A stretch of 4,794 bases of DNA. It comes from a virus (taxonomy: Duplodnaviria > Heunggongvirae > Uroviricota > Caudoviricetes). Made by a program: the position numbers and the translations under genes. Location: positions 1-4,794 of IMG/VR virus record IMGVR_UViG_2648501669_000016. The stretch is one strand, 5' to 3'. This document shows positions 670 to 4,794 of the stretch, piece after piece. The stretch's first letter is position 1, and each line of letters begins with the position of its first letter. Under the pieces are notes generated by a model. It was not told where the DNA came from. It ran no database searches and saw only the letters and a list, made by a program, of their open reading frames with translations.

Positions 670-694
670 CCCCCCCTGTGAATCTTTTTGGGGG
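670..694. promoter_or_regulatory. C7 / G5 inverted repeat (potential hairpin) directly upstream of the small ORF start
   Basis: The plus strand has cccccccc at 670..676, a 13-nt spacer (tgtgaatcttttt) and ggggg at 690..694. On the minus-strand mRNA this would pair the G-rich stretch immediately 5' of the ATG at 668 with an upstream C-run. No U-tract follows on either strand, so it is not a classical intrinsic terminator. Confidence 0.3.
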
Positions 695-700
695 TGTAAT

Positions 701-946
701 ATCCCTACCAATCCCTACCAATCGATAAAACCCATATGTGGCGCGGCTTTCAGGCTGGTAGGGCATTGTTTTTCTACCCCTACTTATCCCTACCTATCCC
801 TACCAAATACCAAAAAACGGTTATGCGTGGCTTCTTGTTTAGTAGGGATATGTAGGGATATGTAGGGATAAATATATATATCCCTACCAGTCTACAAGCC
901 CCGTCATTACTGGCCTTAAATGACTTTGTAGGGATAGGTAGGGATA
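701..946. repeat. Iteron array; putative origin of replication (ori / cis replication region) of the element
   Basis: Direct-orientation ATCCCTACC copies at 701-709, 711-719, 786-794, 796-804 and 880-888, with a partial copy at 777-783. Inverted-orientation GTAGGGAT copies at 842-849, 852-859, 862-869, 928-935 and 938-945, with a degenerate ggtagggca at 757-765. The tandem copies are spaced 10 bp apart. An AT-rich aatatatata sits at 871-880 between inverted and direct copies. The block is non-coding and lies immediately 3' of the primase-helicase stop at 960-962. Confidence 0.75.
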
Positions 947-959
947 AATCAGGGGTAAA

Positions 960-3416
960 CTATTCATCACCCCCTTCGGCGGTGCTGCTGCCATATGCTC
1001 GCGGTATAAACTCCTCCGCCAACTCATTGATCCCAACGTTCGTCTGCGCTCTGCCGTTAATGCTGCGTGTCAGGTAGTTAGCCCTGTATTCTCTGGCGGC
1101 TGATTTAATCGCCCGTGAGAACTTGTTGACGGAAAGCGGCTTCCCTAGCCCGTGATATTCCATAAAGGCCAAATAAAGGTGATACAGGTAAGTTCTCGGC
1201 TCTGGCTGTCCTGCCCACGTTCCTCCCCCCATCATCATTCCCTTCGGCTCGTTCATAAAATACAAGGCCGCGCACATGTCTATGACCGGATCTGTCCCGC
1301 GCTTAACGCCCAACGCCTCTGCGGAATCGCGCTGCTCGATTAAAAGCGCTTTAGCTTTGTTCTGGTCGGCAAACATTGCCAGCAAGTGACGAATAATTAC
1401 CGGCATTTCACGGCAGATCTTCGCTGTCAGGTCGGGGTCTTTCTCCGCTTCTGATACCGGATTATCGAACGGGAATATCACACGGCGGCGGGCAATGCCC
1501 CCGTTGCGCTCGGTAAAGGTCATTGGTTCGTTGTTGGTTGCGAGAACAACGGCATTTAGCACGGTGGTGAACTGCTTTTCATACTTACCATCAATCTCTA
1601 CTGGGTCGCCGCCTGTAATGGCCTTTATCCCTGCGCCTTCGCCAACATAGCGGGTCTGGTCTGGCATGATAATCAGGCTTTTTCCTACAAGCTGCGCCCG
1701 CCCTCTGGCTGTGTCTAGCGCTCCCATGCTGGCGCTGGCTGTGTTGTGCTCACCTGCCAGTGATACGGCTATGCTGCTGAATACGGATTTCCCACTGCCG
1801 CCCTCGCCAGTTATCTCAATGAATAGCTGCCAGTCGTGACGCTTCGCCAGCACCATAAACAAGGCTGCTTTGATACGCTCGGCCTTATGATGGTCGCCAG
1901 CCGTTGCATGATTCAGCCAACGGGTAAAATTGGGGGCGCTGGTGGTAATATTTTCCCCCGGCGCTGGCGGGGTGTAGGTGATCCCATTGTGGTTCATCAG
2001 CCAGTTACCCGGCGAATGGGCGGAAAACGTCTGCGTAGCGAGGTCATAAACGCCGTTATCAAAACCAATCAGATCCCCGCTCCGCTCACCAATTACCGGT
2101 ATTTGCAGCTTCATGGTTGCGACAACCGATTTAATCCCCTTTTCGGTGTAGTGGGCTTCGTGCTCGTCGAAAATTGCCACCATAACCCTTTCTAATTCGC
2201 TGTCTGGTAGCTTCACCCATACGCCAGATTCGTAGCAGTAAACAGTGCCACTATCTGGGTTAACCGCCAACATATCCCATCGAGATGAAAGCAACCGCGC
2301 TTTCTGGCTGGCTGCCATTTGTGCAATATCTCCGACATCGGCTTTACGGCGGGATTTACCGCCAGCAATGGCCTGTAGTTGTGGTTTCACGCATTCCCCC
2401 TGCGGCCGGTACATCGAATCGTTAATCGCAGCCGTAGCGACTTCCAGCCCGTGTTGCTGGTGGTAGTCGTTCCAGTCAGCTTTGCTGTCAGTCGGTGGCA
2501 GCGATACCCAGCCAGCCACGGATAAAGCTGCTTTCTCTGCGGCCTCCTTCCCGATGTTGGTGGCTCCGGTTTCGGAGGCTGCTGTAGGGTGGTCGTTATC
2601 TGCGGCGATAATAATTTGCGACTGCGGGTATTTCCGGCGCATTACTCCGGCAACGTGGATCAGGTTCCCGGCGTCAATTGCTGCCACTGCCAGCGCGTCC
2701 GGGCGCATCAGGTGAACAGACAGAGCGGTAGCCAGCCCCTCGGCAATTAAAACGCTCTGCGGCGATTCTGGCGCGTTTACGGCGTGATATGCCCCGCGCT
2801 TTGCTGAACCTGTCAGGAGTCGCTTCTCTCCCTGCGGTGTAATGGTTTGCGCTGCTGCCACTGCGCCGGATTCGTCCACCAGCTCCAGCAATAACGAACC
2901 ATCCGGCATAACCGGATAGTTAAACCCGGTCAGCCCTTTTGATTGCAGGTAATCAGATTCGCCCTGTGTGGCACTCTGGCGCATTCCGGCATACAGATGG
3001 GCAAACGTAGCCCTTCGCTGCTCTGCGTCCTCTGCTGCCTGTTTCTGGCGCTCCTGCTCACGCTGCTGGCGGTCGGCTTCCAGTTGCTCTCTTCTATGGC
3101 TCGCTGCCGCCGGGTCGGTTTGCGCTGCCCGGTAATCAATACCCAGCACGTCAGCGGCAAGCTGTGCCGCCTCCGTGGTGTCGCAGTTGTTAACCCGCTT
3201 GATTAAATCCAGCCCGTCACCAGCGCCACACTGGTTGCAGATAAAGCTACCGCGCCCGTTGTCGTCGAATCTGAAACGGTCTTTTCCACCACATGCAGGG
3301 CAGGGAGCATGACGGCGCGGAGAGTCAGGGACATTTATGTTCAGGCAGCCCAGCACATGAGGCCAGTTGTTTTCAGACGCACTGATAACCTGACGGATAA
3401 GATCAATGTTTCGCAT
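960..3416 (-). CDS. Primase-helicase fusion protein (zinc ribbon + TOPRIM-type primase + SF3 / P4-alpha-type helicase); replication initiator of a mobile element
   Basis: An 818-819 aa ORF. A CxxC-17-CxxC zinc ribbon (CPACGG...CNQCGAG) is encoded around 3228..3302. The primase region carries the conserved glutamate motif IAEGLATA and the acidic motif IIAADNDH. The helicase region has Walker A GEGGSGKS (nt 1785..1808), a Walker-B-like LIIMPD and an SF3 motif-C-like VLATNN. A charged E/Q/R-rich linker lies between the zinc ribbon and the primase domain. The start is placed at ATG 3416..3414; an in-frame GTG at 3419 is one codon upstream (the ORF track runs 960..3419). Confidence 0.9.
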   Translation of the reverse strand: MRNIDLIRQVISASENNWPHVLGCLNINVPDSPRRHAPCPACGGKDRFRFDDNGRGSFICNQCGAGDGLDLIKRVNNCDTTEAAQLAADVLGIDYRAAQTDPAAASHRREQLEADRQQREQERQKQAAEDAEQRRATFAHLYAGMRQSATQGESDYLQSKGLTGFNYPVMPDGSLLLELVDESGAVAAAQTITPQGEKRLLTGSAKRGAYHAVNAPESPQSVLIAEGLATALSVHLMRPDALAVAAIDAGNLIHVAGVMRRKYPQSQIIIAADNDHPTAASETGATNIGKEAAEKAALSVAGWVSLPPTDSKADWNDYHQQHGLEVATAAINDSMYRPQGECVKPQLQAIAGGKSRRKADVGDIAQMAASQKARLLSSRWDMLAVNPDSGTVYCYESGVWVKLPDSELERVMVAIFDEHEAHYTEKGIKSVVATMKLQIPVIGERSGDLIGFDNGVYDLATQTFSAHSPGNWLMNHNGITYTPPAPGENITTSAPNFTRWLNHATAGDHHKAERIKAALFMVLAKRHDWQLFIEITGEGGSGKSVFSSIAVSLAGEHNTASASMGALDTARGRAQLVGKSLIIMPDQTRYVGEGAGIKAITGGDPVEIDGKYEKQFTTVLNAVVLATNNEPMTFTERNGGIARRRVIFPFDNPVSEAEKDPDLTAKICREMPVIIRHLLAMFADQNKAKALLIEQRDSAEALGVKRGTDPVIDMCAALYFMNEPKGMMMGGGTWAGQPEPRTYLYHLYLAFMEYHGLGKPLSVNKFSRAIKSAAREYRANYLTRSINGRAQTNVGINELAEEFIPRAYGSSTAEGGDE

Positions 3417-3774
3417 CACCGTACCCCACGTGGTCTATAGCGTTTGCGATATGGCTAACCAGCATCTGCCACTTGGTTATTCCGTAATCAGTCAGCATGC
3501 CATCATTGTTTAGCCACATATCAAATTCAGCGGTTGTCGCAAGTTTCCACTTATCGCCGTGGACAGTCCTCATTGCTGGGTACATGAATGCGCAAATCAG
3601 ATCACAAACATCTGACGGCTTCAGAGATGTAGTAATGGTGCGTCCCTCTGGCGTCTGAATTGCCATTTTCTCTTCACCAGTAGAATGAAGGTTATGAATC
3701 CACACAGCACCAGCAATCTTTGCCACCTGCTCTCCGATTGCGGAGCTAAGCGCCATTTCTACATTTTCACGCAT
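3403..3774 (-). CDS. Hypothetical protein (123 aa), translationally coupled to the primase-helicase gene
   Basis: The ATG at 3774 is preceded by a strong SD (GGGAGG, 5 nt spacer). The stop at 3405..3403 overlaps the primase start by 14 nt. Same strand as its neighbours, no gaps. I recognise no motif. Confidence 0.6.
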   Translation of the reverse strand: MRENVEMALSSAIGEQVAKIAGAVWIHNLHSTGEEKMAIQTPEGRTITTSLKPSDVCDLICAFMYPAMRTVHGDKWKLATTAEFDMWLNNDGMLTDYGITKWQMLVSHIANAIDHVGYGDAKH

Positions 3775-4108
3775 GAGAACCTCCCGCTACAGTTGCGCCC
3801 ATGTCATTAACCATGCTTTGCCATATCTCACGCCCGACGTCAGTCAATCTGTCCTTAGTGACGCAACGATCAAGAAGCTCGATCCCCACGGTTTCCCACT
3901 GCGGGTAGAACACTTTCATGGCTGCCAGTGTGTAGCTATCGATCAGGCTGCGAACGCCTTTTACTCCATTGACGATTTCCACACGGACGGCCTCTCCGTC
4001 CGCATCAATCATGAAATAGTCCCCGCCGCTGGTGGAGGTAATGTGGTTATACAGTGCTGACGCATACTTATTTGCCAGCGCATTCAGTCGGAAATTTTTA
4101 GTAATCAT
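3767..4108 (-). CDS. Hypothetical protein (113 aa)
   Basis: The ATG at 4108 is preceded by GGATGGAGCC, containing a GGAG SD. Its last codons (..GGSHA, nt GGGAGGTTCTCATGCGTGA) encode the SD and start of the next gene, with an 8-nt overlap ATGCGTGA. I recognise no motif. Confidence 0.6.
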   Translation of the reverse strand: MITKNFRLNALANKYASALYNHITSTSGGDYFMIDADGEAVRVEIVNGVKGVRSLIDSYTLAAMKVFYPQWETVGIELLDRCVTKDRLTDVGREIWQSMVNDMGATVAGGSHA

Positions 4109-4118
4109 GGCTCCATCC

Positions 4119-4721
4119 TCAGTGCGTCACTGGTTCCGCTGGCATGCCGTTTTCATTCAGTTCAGCTATAAAGCTGTTGTGAAGTTCAGCAAGCGTTTCA
4201 CGACCAAATGGAGTCAGTGCTCCTTGTTCCACATCCATCATGGCTCTGTAGAAAATGATGGCGCGTTCTGTGCCAGACTCGATGCCAAAACGTTCTATCA
4301 TCGCGCCCTCAATGTTGTTTGCCATAGCGAGGCGCTCTGCTACTGGATACAGCGACATGGCGACGATGCCGTTGGAATAAACAGCCACTTCGGAAGGATT
4401 GCCAGTATCATCAATGATGCTGACAGTGCCGTTTTCCTTTCTCATTTCATTGATGAATGCTGTTGCTATCAGCCAGCGCCACATAATCACGTGATGCTGT
4501 GATGTGTAATCGAAATATCCCTGGTTGCCGCCACTGGCAATAGCGAGATGTATAAACATGCCTTCATCTGGTTTATCGTCATAATCCCCGGCATCCAGAC
4601 GATTTACGGCATCAATATATGAGACGGTCTCAACGCGTTCTGTCATGCCATCGTTGCTGCGGTACATGATGTTTACGCCGTCAGGCGTTGCTTCTGCATG
4701 GAAAGTTAAGAAATTATTCAT
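4119..4721 (-). CDS. Hypothetical protein (200 aa from ATG 4721; 211 aa if started at ATG 4754)
   Basis: A long minus-strand ORF. The ATG at 4721 has a GAGG SD 6 nt upstream and overlaps the stop of the upstream partial ORF (ATGAATAA), so I prefer it as the start. The ATG at 4754 is in frame but lacks an obvious SD. The stop TGA at 4121..4119 lies 10 nt before the next start. Function unknown. Confidence 0.6.
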   Translation of the reverse strand: MNNFLTFHAEATPDGVNIMYRSNDGMTERVETVSYIDAVNRLDAGDYDDKPDEGMFIHLAIASGGNQGYFDYTSQHHVIMWRWLIATAFINEMRKENGTVSIIDDTGNPSEVAVYSNGIVAMSLYPVAERLAMANNIEGAMIERFGIESGTERAIIFYRAMMDVEQGALTPFGRETLAELHNSFIAELNENGMPAEPVTH

Positions 4722-4794
4722 GTTTCGCCTCGCCTGAATGATTCTGTAACTCATATTTGCCCAACAATTCGTCCGCTTCCTGAATAGCTTCTGG
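4714..4794 (-). CDS. 3' end of an upstream gene running in from beyond the window edge (partial; C-terminus ..PEAIQEADELLGKYELQNHSGEAKHE)
   Basis: An open frame with no stop runs from the window edge at 4794 to TAA at 4716..4714, and that stop overlaps the downstream ATG at 4721. Only 26 codons are visible, so coding status rests on frame continuity and the coupling geometry. Confidence 0.35.
   Translation of the reverse strand, partial: PEAIQEADELLGKYELQNHSGEAKHE

What the first reader, a model, noticed from the sequence alone, without database searches (positions are those of the whole stretch)
960..3416. Three-domain primase-helicase (zinc ribbon + TOPRIM-type primase + SF3 helicase) as the element's self-encoded initiator
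Zinc ribbon, primase EGLATA and DxD motifs, and SF3 Walker A/B/C motifs are all readable in one 818-aa frame. This architecture is typical of satellite-phage, PICI and plasmid replication initiators rather than host replication genes, which marks the region as part of a mobile element. The roughly 90 residues after the helicase motifs (about nt 960..1230) have no catalytic motif and would be the natural candidate for an iteron-binding domain, by analogy with the origin-binding C-terminal domain of P4 alpha.
Basis: partly seen in the sequence, partly recalled or inferred. Interest (0 to 1): 0.5.

Follow-up and report, generated by a model that had tools for sequence, protein, structure and literature searches.

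The report
P4-alpha-type replication initiator with its origin

Summary
Observation and interpretation both hold. Window 960-3416 (minus strand) is an uninterrupted 818-aa ORF. It carries Zn_Ribbon_Prim, Toprim_3, D5_N, an SF3 P-loop (DUF5906) and Pox_D5, the same five Pfam domains in the same order as phage P4 alpha. It aligns with P4 alpha end to end (38% identity).

The last ~110 residues are not merely analogous to the P4 origin-binding domain. They match its crystal structure sequence (PDB 1KA8, E=1e-8).

Directly after the stop codon lie 12 copies of ATCCCTAC (701-945) in exact two-fold symmetry about nt ~823. The gene-proximal half has the same 2-1-3 geometry as the P4 ori.

Across 22 relatives plus P4 alpha, the iteron word tracks the C-terminal domain rather than the helicase core (partial Mantel r=0.80, p=2e-4). 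One relative shows this directly: its helicase is 80% identical, its C-terminal domain 35% identical, and its iterons are P4-type TGTTCACC.

The host element is a 12.4-kb tRNA-Thr island with int, alpA, antA, the primase, the ori, ssb and perC. This is the Gram-negative PICI layout. Its helicase and C-terminal domain are 49% identical to the experimentally validated EcCICFT073 Pri-Rep.

Verdict: an ordinary new member of a known kind, of low to moderate interest.

The parts
960..3416 (-). Primase-helicase-initiator gene (818 aa plus stop at 960-962), a full-length homolog of phage P4 alpha
   Evidence: ORF. Pfam and NCBIfam hits. BLASTP to P4 alpha gives 38% identity over res 7-813, E=2e-172. 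phrog_2249 'DNA primase' E=8e-149.
3210..3317 (-). Zinc ribbon (res 34-69), with CPAC at nt 3291-3302 and CNQC at nt 3228-3239
   Evidence: PF08273 E=2.7e-15. The cysteines are invariant in 21 homologs. Coordinates.
2448..2753 (-). DnaG/T7-gp4-type TOPRIM primase core (res 222-323), with EGLATA at nt 2724-2741 and DxD (DNDH) at nt 2589-2600
   Evidence: PF13362 E=9.6e-15. E226, D273 and D275 are invariant. The N-terminal part of the AF2 model matches the DnaG RNA-polymerase domain 5GUJ and the T7 gp4 primase 1NUI.
1908..2174 (-). D5_N domain (res 415-503), N-terminal to the helicase core
   Evidence: PF08706 E=1.6e-7. Falls within the phmmer match to the 7OLA 'DNA primase' chain, res 393-652.
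1476..1811 (-). SF3 helicase P-loop core (res 536-647): Walker A nt 1785-1808, Walker B nt 1656-1676, motif C nt 1530-1547, arginine-finger RRR within nt 1476-1493
   Evidence: PF19263 E=2.9e-11. TIGR01613 over res 450-713. Motif coordinates. The motifs are invariant in homologs.
1020..1295 (-). C-terminal winged-helix origin-binding domain (res 708-799). The predicted recognition helix is ~763-781 and the wing ~782-793 (nt 1038-1073).
   Evidence: phmmer to PDB 1KA8 (P4 alpha origin-binding domain) E=1.1e-8 over 92 residues. Pox_D5 hit. Co-varies with the iteron word.
701..945 (.). Replication origin of 12 iterons ATCCCTAC. Read in gene direction: F938-945, F928-935, R880-887, F862-869, F852-859, F842-849, then R796-803, R786-793, R776-783 (1 mismatch), F758-765 (2 mismatches), R711-718, R701-708. 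The arrangement has exact two-fold symmetry about nt ~823.
   Evidence: With up to 1 mismatch allowed, 16 matches in the window (11 of them in the array, 10 exact) against 2.75 expected; 0 of 200 shuffles reach 16. The 12th array copy, F758-765, needs 2 mismatches. Per-copy coordinates. TRF 10-bp period. Single-strand fold z=-9.3. The same layout occurs downstream of the gene in about 20 relatives and in EcCICFT073.
870..879 (.). AT-only run (GGGATATATATATTTATCCC) between the lone inverted iteron and the triple iteron; candidate unwinding element
   Evidence: Read directly from the sequence. The GC profile dips to 0.44 here. PICI origins are described as iteron sets flanking an AT-rich region (PMC6092414).
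25..668 (-). Downstream co-oriented genes of the replication module: a 69-aa ORF (459-668) and an SSB (25-468) with an acidic DDEAPF tail
   Evidence: PF00436 E=3.8e-17 and TIGR00621. The order primase, ori, small ORF, SSB, PerC is the same in EcCICFT073.
3403..3774 (-). Upstream 123-aa ORF whose stop overlaps the primase start by 14 nt (probable translational coupling); function unknown
   Evidence: No Pfam, NCBIfam or PHROG hit. No BLAST similarity to P4 Cnr.

Best explanation
The gene encodes the island's own replication initiator, a P4-alpha-type polypeptide that does three jobs.

Inferred from homology:
- The C-terminal winged helix recognises the ATCCCTAC iterons packed into the 245-bp origin that begins 14 nt after the stop codon.
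- The central D5_N/SF3 AAA+ module assembles into hexamers on that DNA and unwinds it, starting at the AT-only run.
- The N-terminal zinc ribbon plus DnaG-type TOPRIM domain lays down RNA primers. Host DNA polymerase III, helped by the island's own SSB, can then copy the excised circle without DnaA, DnaB, DnaC or DnaG, as known for P4.

Further inference: the 12 iterons form two mirror-image 2-1-3 half-sites, so two helicase rings are probably loaded head to head for bidirectional replication.

Shown here: the ORF, the domains and motifs, homology to P4 alpha and to the solved origin-binding domain, the iteron array with its symmetry, the island context, and the co-variation of C-terminal domain with iteron word. 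No enzymatic activity, DNA binding or replication was shown.
For: Architecture and homology:
- Same five Pfam domains in the same order as P4 alpha, with an end-to-end alignment at 38% identity.
- The C-terminus matches PDB 1KA8 at E=1e-8, and the helicase matches the 7OLA primase chain at E=2e-11.
- Catalytic residues are invariant in 21 homologs.
- The N-terminal model matches DnaG and T7 gp4 primase folds.

Origin:
- 12 iterons occur where 2.75 chance matches are expected, in exact dyad symmetry.
- Left-half offsets are 0, 10, 58, 76, 86, 96. The annotated P4 ori type-1 repeats have offsets 0, 10, 53, 75, 86, 96.

Experimental precedent:
- The EcCICFT073 Pri-Rep is 49% identical over res 270-804 and has the same iteron layout but the word GTCTACC.
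- With its ori it was shown to drive plasmid replication in E. coli, and deleting either part abolished this (PMC6092414).

Specificity:
- Across 22 relatives plus P4 alpha, iteron distance follows C-terminal-domain distance after controlling for the helicase core (partial r=0.80, p=2e-4). The reverse partial correlation is -0.36.
- L015 (Tatumella) is 80% identical in the helicase and 35% in the winged helix, and it has TGTTCACC iterons. The identity break falls at about res 700.

Context:
- The window is 99.98% identical to part of a 12.4-kb island at tRNA-Thr carrying int and alpA.
- Related islands appear as 17-23 kb circular 'plasmid' records.
Against: - There is no experiment on this allele.
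- The AF2 model is poor for the helicase and C-terminal parts (pLDDT below 50), so no fold evidence exists there.
- TIGR01613 passes its cutoff by only 0.1 bit.
- The co-variation could partly reflect co-inheritance of a neighbouring gene with the origin.
- The island has no recognisable packaging or capsid genes. Whether it is still mobilised, and so ever replicates, is unknown.
- The double-hexamer idea rests only on the dyad symmetry and on analogy with SV40 and papillomavirus SF3 initiators.
Confidence: 0.85

Rival explanations
1. The gene is the alpha gene of a genuine P4-like satellite that hijacks P2-type helpers, not of a PICI-type island.
For: It has full-length homology and identical domain order to P4 alpha. 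The island also has P4-like Int (42%), Vis/AlpA (35%) and an Icd-like peptide.
Against: tblastn of all P4 proteins against the island finds no Sid, Delta, Psu, Epsilon, Cnr, Gop/Beta or cII. Gene order (int, alpA, antA..., primase, ori, ssb, perC) matches EcCICFT073 and EcCIMP1. The origin is one contiguous palindrome, not the split ori plus crr of P4. This rival changes only the element's label, not the protein's mechanism.
Confidence: 0.07
2. The iterons are read by something other than the C-terminal domain, such as the 69-aa ORF next to the origin, the D5_N domain or a host factor. The C-terminal domain would then serve oligomerisation or regulation.
For: The P4 origin-binding domain structure paper also assigns it homo- and heterodimerisation roles (title cited in PMC2777425). 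The small downstream ORF lies next to the origin and could be swapped together with it. A second conserved motif, GGCTTnnAG, sits beside the lone inverted iteron.
Against: The domain is homologous to a domain deposited and published as the P4 origin-binding domain. Relatives with a P4-like C-terminal domain carry exactly the P4 iteron TGTTCACC. Iteron word correlates with this domain and not with the helicase or D5_N region. The EcCICFT073 rep gene plus ori sufficed for replication (PMC6092414).
Confidence: 0.06
3. The module is a relic. The island is a defective remnant that no longer excises or replicates, so the gene is intact only because the decay is recent or because it has been co-opted, for example to aid or interfere with helper-phage replication.
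For: No capsid, terminase or other packaging genes are recognisable in the island. Such 'type C' PICIs are flagged as possibly defective in the EcCIMP1 paper, which also reports that the island aids helper replication (PMC11773190).
Against: The ORF is intact with every catalytic residue conserved. Ten of 12 iterons are exact and the symmetry is exact. Gene plus origin are conserved at 80% coverage or more in 75 complete E. coli genomes and across many genera. EcCIMP1, which has the same backbone and no obvious packaging genes, was shown to excise and be transduced.
Confidence: 0.08

Closest known systems
Phage P4 alpha protein (gpalpha, P10277) with the P4 ori and crr
   Same: Same five Pfam domains in the same order, with 38% identity end to end. 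It has the EG(Y/L)ATA primase motif, the SF3 motifs, the double or triple arginine at the finger position, and a C-terminal winged helix homologous to 1KA8. Octamer iterons are spaced about 10 bp apart. The gene-proximal origin half has the same 2F-1R-3F geometry as the P4 ori.
   Different: The iteron word is ATCCCTAC, not TGTTCACC. The origin is a single 245-bp two-fold symmetric unit directly after the gene. In P4 the ori half-site lies 4.5 kb from a duplicated crr, with a terminator between alpha and crr. No Cnr homolog was found. The helper-hijacking genes sid, delta, psu and epsilon are absent. A longer predicted helical linker (res ~102-148) joins the Zn ribbon to the primase core.
EcCICFT073 Pri-Rep plus ori (Gram-negative PICI replicon, Fillol-Salom et al. 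2018, PMC6092414)
   Same: The helicase and winged-helix portions are 49% identical. The origin layout and position are identical, including the conserved CTGAAAGCCGCGCCA block. The flanking order is the same: primase, ori, small ORF, SSB, PerC. This replicon was shown experimentally to be self-sufficient.
   Different: The EcCICFT073 protein (584 aa) and the EcCIRM13514 protein (607 aa) have no zinc ribbon or TOPRIM domain. The window protein has the full primase module. The iteron word is GTCTACC rather than ATCCCTAC.
EcCIMP1 primase (TOPRIM plus DUF927, 918 aa; PMC11773190)
   Same: It uses the same tRNA-Thr/proA integration site and island backbone. Window nt 2661-4794 is 92% identical at DNA level. 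The primase module, res 1-352, is 74% identical. The island was shown to be phage-inducible and transducible.
   Different: From about res 350 the helicase is a DUF927 type with no similarity to the window protein. Its downstream repeats are GTTGGTTCA/TTGAACCAAC. The primase module and the helicase/DNA-binding/origin cassette therefore recombine independently.
SaPI and other staphylococcal Pri-Rep self-loading helicases (PDB 7OLA/7OM0)
   Same: The D5_N plus SF3 core is detectably homologous (E=2e-11 over res 393-652). The origin with iterons lies 3' of the rep gene (PMC6092414).
   Different: Sequence identity is low. The primase type and the C-terminal domain are not shown to be shared.

Membership tests
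Phage P4 alpha-type primase-helicase (TIGR01613, 'phage/plasmid primase, P4 family') | N-terminal primase zinc ribbon (PF08273) | tested here: met
   Res 34-69, E=2.7e-15. The four cysteines are invariant.
Phage P4 alpha-type primase-helicase (TIGR01613, 'phage/plasmid primase, P4 family') | DnaG-type TOPRIM primase core with an EGYATA-type motif and DxD | tested here: met
   Toprim_3 over res 222-323. EGLATA 226-231 aligns with P4 EGYATA, and DND 273-275 aligns with P4 DRD. Foldseek matches to DnaG and T7 gp4 primase.
Phage P4 alpha-type primase-helicase (TIGR01613, 'phage/plasmid primase, P4 family') | D5_N plus SF3 helicase core with Walker A, Walker B, motif C and an arginine finger; model score above the curated cutoff | tested here: met
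   PF08706 and PF19263. TIGR01613 scores 108.8 against a cutoff of 108.7, a marginal pass. Motifs located.
Phage P4 alpha-type primase-helicase (TIGR01613, 'phage/plasmid primase, P4 family') | C-terminal winged-helix origin-binding domain | tested here: met
   phmmer to 1KA8 E=1.1e-8 over res 708-799. The conserved YLYHxYL helix is present.
Phage P4 alpha-type primase-helicase (TIGR01613, 'phage/plasmid primase, P4 family') | Primase, 3'-5' helicase and iteron-binding activities | not testable with these tools
   These are biochemical properties. Only the conserved catalytic residues could be checked.
P4 replicon organisation (ori plus distant crr, Cnr control) | Split cis elements (ori 4.5 kb from a duplicated crr) and a Cnr regulator upstream of alpha | tested here: not met
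   All iterons lie in one 245-bp block after the gene. No Cnr similarity was found. The P4 layout is shown.
P4-like satellite (hijacking module sid/delta/psu/epsilon) | Presence of Sid, Delta, Psu and Epsilon homologs | tested here: not met
   tblastn of the P4 proteins against island L003 gives hits only for Int, Alpha, Vis and an Icd-like peptide.
Gram-negative PICI (Fillol-Salom 2018 criteria) | Replication origin immediately 3' of the rep gene, with two iteron sets flanking an AT-rich region | tested here: met
   The layout is the same as in EcCICFT073. The criterion is quoted.
Gram-negative PICI (Fillol-Salom 2018 criteria) | int plus alpA, unidirectional transcription, about 10-15 kb, no phage structural or lysis genes, specific att site | tested here: met
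   Island L003 ~3473-15911 (12.4 kb) at tRNA-Thr carries int, AlpA, AntA, primase, SSB and PerC, nearly all on one strand, with an imperfect 20-nt att repeat. Absence of structural genes was judged from Pfam labels only.
Gram-negative PICI (Fillol-Salom 2018 criteria) | Helper-phage-dependent induction, replication and packaging | not testable with these tools
   This was shown only for relatives: EcCICFT073 and EcCIMP1.

The most novel reading that the evidence does not exclude
The origin here may be the ancestral, compact form of the P4 replication system. It would be a perfectly two-fold symmetric pair of 2-1-3 iteron half-sites that loads two SF3 hexamers head to head.

On this reading, the P4 ori is one such half-site. 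The P4 crr would be a degenerate, duplicated copy of the other half, moved 4.5 kb away.

In addition, the winged-helix domain and the origin would move between elements as one exchangeable cassette. That exchange would be independent both of the helicase core (break at about res 700) and of the primase module (break at about res 250-350). It would generate new replicon specificities that avoid cross-talk between co-resident satellites.
Probability: 0.4. Interest if true: 0.4.

Novelty: new member of a known kind. Interest (0 to 1): 0.27.

Why it matters
The finding marks this short contig as part of a self-replicating phage-satellite-type island and gives that island a complete, testable replicon: gene, 12-iteron origin and SSB.

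Beyond annotation, the comparison offers a natural specificity series. There is one conserved origin geometry, at least six iteron words, and matching winged-helix variants. This series could be used to map how P4-alpha/Pri-Rep initiators read DNA, or to build orthogonal replicons. None of this overturns current understanding of these replicons.

Tried and rejected
- Structure prediction of the full protein with a 21-sequence alignment gave mean pLDDT 55. The helicase and C-terminal domain were below 50. Only the N-terminal primase part was usable for Foldseek. I drew no fold conclusion for the C-terminus from it and relied on sequence homology to 1KA8.
- A literature search for the iteron word (TATCCCTAC/GTAGGGATA) returned 472 papers; none of the 15 listed concerned a bacterial or phage replication origin, and I take most of them to be primer or engineered-site sequences (own judgement, the papers were not opened).
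- BLASTP of the upstream 123-aa ORF against P4 Cnr, which occupies the same position relative to alpha, found no alignment. A remote relationship was not tested with profiles.
- A terminator and promoter scan of 400-1100 found no terminator between the gene and the origin and nothing above chance.
- My first guess at the EcCICFT073 coordinates fetched a lambdoid prophage instead. The island was found in the next stretch.
- blastn-short of the window origin against P4 gave only a marginal 17-nt hit to the P4 ori type-2 repeats (E=0.047). The resemblance to P4 is therefore architectural, not sequence-level.
- Megablast against the phage collection found nothing. Only the protein-level search recovered P4.
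- Many Xenorhabdus and Photorhabdus relatives showed only 3-6 weak repeats downstream. I left them out of the co-variation test, so that test covers the 22 loci with at least 8 called iterons plus P4.
Full report
**1. The observation**

The six-frame ORF list shows one long frame on the minus strand, 960..3419 with a GTG start.

The identical 818-aa protein is called on four public contigs. One of them (JRQF01000185.1, 4794 bp) is the window itself. NCBI names the protein 'primase-helicase zinc-binding domain-containing protein [Escherichia coli]'.

Pfam recovers five domains above their gathering cutoffs:

| Domain | Residues |
|---|---|
| Zn_Ribbon_Prim | 34-69 |
| Toprim_3 | 222-323 |
| D5_N | 415-503 |
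| DUF5906 (SF3 P-loop) | 536-643 |
| Pox_D5 | 740-803 |

NCBIfam gives TIGR01613 'phage/plasmid primase, P4 family' at 108.8 bits against a cutoff of 108.7. PHROGs gives phrog_2249 'DNA primase' at E=8e-149 over res 32-801.

- CPAC and CNQC in the zinc ribbon
- EGLATA
- DNDH
- GEGGSGKS (Walker A)
- LIIMPDQ (Walker B)
- VLATNN (motif C)
- RRR

The catalytic residues are invariant in a 21-sequence alignment of homologs at 71-95% identity.

**2. What the protein is**

A protein-level search of phage genomes finds phage P4 alpha as the best full-length hit, covering 97% of the query. A direct BLASTP aligns res 7-813 with P4 alpha res 5-777 at 38% identity, E=2e-172. P4 alpha has the same five Pfam domains in the same order.

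Against PDB sequences there are two matches:
- The helicase part matches the 7OLA/7OM0 'DNA primase' chain (E=2e-11).
- Residues 708-799 match 1KA8, deposited as 'putative P4-specific DNA primase', at E=1.1e-8 over 92 residues. 1KA8 is the winged-helix origin-binding domain of P4 alpha (Yeo et al. 2002, as cited in PMC2777425).

An AlphaFold2 model built from a shallow alignment was poor overall (pLDDT 55). It was below 50 for the helicase and the C-terminus, and 70-89 for the N-terminal primase region. Foldseek matched the model to the DnaG RNA-polymerase domain (5GUJ) and the T7 gp4 primase fragment (1NUI). These have weak E-values but high probability and agree with the Pfam result. I draw nothing from the model for the C-terminus.

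**3. The origin next to the gene**

The 291-bp intergenic stretch after the stop codon (669-959) holds the octamer ATCCCTAC. There are 10 exact copies, one copy with one mismatch and one with two mismatches, at a 10-bp period. With one mismatch allowed the window has 16 matches against 2.75 expected, and 0 of 200 shuffles reach 16.

Read in the gene's direction the copies run as follows:
- Left half: F938, F928, R880, F862, F852, F842
- Right half: R796, R786, R776, F758, R711, R701

Each left-half copy pairs with a right-half copy, and the coordinate sums are 1645-1646. This is exact two-fold symmetry about nt ~823.

As single-stranded DNA the region folds with z=-9.3 relative to shuffles. 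An AT-only run sits between the lone inverted copy and the triplet. No terminator-like site separates the gene from the array.

**4. Comparison with P4 and with PICI origins**

In the annotated P4 genome, the six type-1 repeats of ori have offsets 0, 10, 53, 75, 86 and 96 when read in alpha's direction. Their pattern is 2F-1R-3F. The window's left half has offsets 0, 10, 58, 76, 86 and 96. The P4 ori therefore looks like one half of the window's origin.

The P4 crr lies right after the alpha gene. It is two 120-bp units, each reading R-F-F-(ACTGAAA)-R-R. This loosely resembles the window's right half, R-R-R-F-(CTGAAAGCC)-R-R. That resemblance is my reading of the sequences, not a statistical result. 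At sequence level the window origin and P4 share nothing significant.

EcCICFT073 is the E. coli PICI whose rep gene and ori were shown to drive plasmid replication, with deletions of either abolishing it (PMC6092414). It has the same layout in the same place, including the block CTGAAAGCCGCGCCA, but its repeat word is GTCTACC. That paper describes PICI origins as two iteron sets flanking an AT-rich region.

**5. Does the C-terminal domain read the iterons?**

I fetched 68 loci encoding relatives of res 370-818 from one-per-species genomes. For each I called the dominant repeat in the 340 bp after the stop codon.

About 20 loci show the same 2-1-3 / 3-1-2 pattern at nearly the same offsets, but with different words:

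| Iteron word | Loci |
|---|---|
| ATCCCTAC | window, L001, L002, L010-L012, L054 |
| TCTCTACC | L014, L076 |
| GTCTACC | L018, CFT073 |
| TATCTACC | L016 |
| CCCTACC | L040, L013 |
| TGTTCACC (the P4 word) | L015, L024, L025, L029 |
| TGTTCAG | L056-L059 |
| TGTTCAT | L062 |

In an alignment of the C-terminal 115 residues, the predicted recognition helix and wing sort with the iteron word.

I then compared pairwise distances across 22 loci plus P4:
- Iteron distance correlates with distance in res 740-799 at r=0.80.
- It correlates with distance in the helicase core (res 400-700) at only r=0.32.
- The partial correlation of iteron with winged helix, controlling for helicase, is 0.80 (permutation p=2e-4).
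- The reverse partial correlation is -0.36.

The clearest single case is L015 from Tatumella morbirosei. Against the window protein its helicase is 80% identical, its res 740-799 are 35% identical and its wing is 17% identical. Its iterons are P4-type TGTTCACC. Windowed identity drops from 0.87-0.90 at res 511-660 to 0.2-0.3 after res 750, with the break near res 700.

This is comparative evidence, not proof. Against that, the EcCICFT073 rep gene plus ori sufficed for replication.

**6. Mosaic structure**

EcCIMP1 is a PICI shown to be induced and transduced by phage Kapi1 (PMC11773190). It sits at the same tRNA-Thr/proA site. Window nt 2661-4794 is 92% identical to it.

Its 918-aa primase is 74% identical to window res 1-352. 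It then continues as a DUF927 helicase with no similarity, and its downstream repeats are GTTGGTTCA.

Conversely, EcCICFT073 (584 aa) and EcCIRM13514 (607 aa) share the helicase and winged helix at 45-49% identity but have no zinc ribbon or TOPRIM.

So there are at least three exchangeable pieces: the primase module, the helicase core, and the winged helix together with the origin.

Among 5,426 complete E. coli genomes, 75 carry gene plus origin at 80% coverage or more. A further ~520 match only part of it, in most of the sampled rows only the primase-module end of the query.

**7. The element**

The window is 99.98% identical to L003 8623-13417. In L003 the island begins at the 3' end of tRNA-Thr(cgt), next to proBA. 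It ends at an imperfect repeat of that 3' end about 12.4 kb away.

Its gene order is int, a 251-aa ORF, AlpA, AntA, DUF4222, several small ORFs, the primase, the ori, a 69-aa ORF, SSB, PerC and PRiA4_ORF3. Nearly all are on one strand.

Of the P4 proteins, only Int, Alpha, Vis and an Icd-like peptide have homologs there. Sid, Delta, Psu, Epsilon and Cnr do not. This matches the published statement that PICIs and P4 share only AlpA, Pri-Rep and Int.

Related islands occur in E. coli between yicC and dinD. They also appear as 17-23 kb circular 'plasmid' records in Klebsiella and Raoultella. One has a terminal duplication that suggests an assembled circular or concatemeric form.

**8. Mechanism and verdict**

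The most likely mechanism follows what is known for P4 alpha. It is inferred, not shown:
- The winged helix binds the iterons.
- SF3 hexamers assemble and open the AT-rich run.
- The TOPRIM primase primes.
- Host polymerase III and the island's own SSB complete replication of the excised circle.

The mirror symmetry suggests loading of two opposed hexamers. This rests only on analogy with other SF3 initiators.

The finding is correct but ordinary. It is a new, uncharacterised allele of a well-known initiator family in a well-known class of island, and it is already annotated as such in public databases. The modest added value lies in three things:
- the exact two-fold symmetry of the 12-iteron array
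- the link between the P4 ori and one half of that array
- the natural specificity series tying the winged helix to the iteron word

Noticed in passing
window 2661-4794 versus L007 (EcCIMP1) 20543-22673: The upstream operon and the first ~250 codons of the primase are 92% identical to the experimentally studied PICI EcCIMP1. That island then continues with an unrelated DUF927 helicase and different downstream repeats (GTTGGTTCA). The recombination joint lies inside the gene.
   Followed up: partly
window 890-905 and 740-757; L001, L015, L024, L025 origins: A second conserved motif, GGCTT(G/T)nAG(A/G)CT, sits next to the lone inverted iteron in both origin halves. It recurs, in either orientation, in relatives with different iteron words. 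It resembles the P4 ori 'type 2' repeat GGCTTTAAATG (17-nt blastn-short hit, E=0.047). Its function is unknown.
   Followed up: partly
window 904-913: The 10-mer CAGTAATGAC in the AT-rich spacer also occurs in the P4 ori (P4 9331-9345 region), but on the other side of the lone inverted iteron. This may be chance.
   Followed up: no
window 672-700: CCCCCAAAAAGATTCACAGGGGGGG lies just upstream of the 69-aa ORF start. The G-run doubles as the likely ribosome-binding site and can pair with the C-run. An AAAACTTTT...GGGGG block occupies the same place in L015, L024 and EcCICFT073.
   Followed up: no
window 3403-4754: Three overlapping upstream ORFs (123, 113 and ~200 aa) have no Pfam or NCBIfam hit. 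Two match PHROGs of unknown function (phrog_37628, phrog_1515). They are conserved in EcCIMP1 and in the yicC-dinD islands. The 123-aa ORF occupies the position of P4 cnr but shows no BLAST similarity to it.
   Followed up: partly
window res 102-148 of the primase (nt ~2973-3113): A ~47-residue E/R/Q-rich stretch is predicted as one long helix (pLDDT 70-89) linking the zinc ribbon to the TOPRIM core. In the BLASTP alignment P4 alpha has an 18-residue gap in this stretch.
   Followed up: no
L079 (NZ_CP033626.1) and L080 (NZ_CP146545.1): Klebsiella and Raoultella 'plasmids' of 17-23 kb are whole islands of this type (int, HTH, antA, primase, SSB, PerC, and in L079 also a tape-measure protein). 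One record repeats its first genes at its end. This suggests an excised circular or concatemeric form assembled as a plasmid.
   Followed up: partly
L003 13742-13818 and 14527-14603: A 77-nt direct repeat (73% identity) flanks the 125-aa ORF downstream of perC, outside the window.
   Followed up: no
L003 16234-19453: Beyond the island's right att repeat lie a 193-aa ORF, a 543-aa ORF and a second AlpA gene. This suggests a second element integrated in tandem.
   Followed up: no
L013 (CACSKA010000009.1): A contig labelled Chryseobacterium sp. carries an 84%-identical copy of this enterobacterial gene. This is possibly contamination or mislabelling of the assembly.
   Followed up: no
L020-L052 (Xenorhabdus, Photorhabdus and Proteus relatives): These relatives are about 58-61% identical, but most show only 3-6 weak repeats (ATGTATA/CTATACA, CTGTGCA) downstream rather than the 12-iteron palindrome. 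Their origins may lie elsewhere or be built differently.
   Followed up: no
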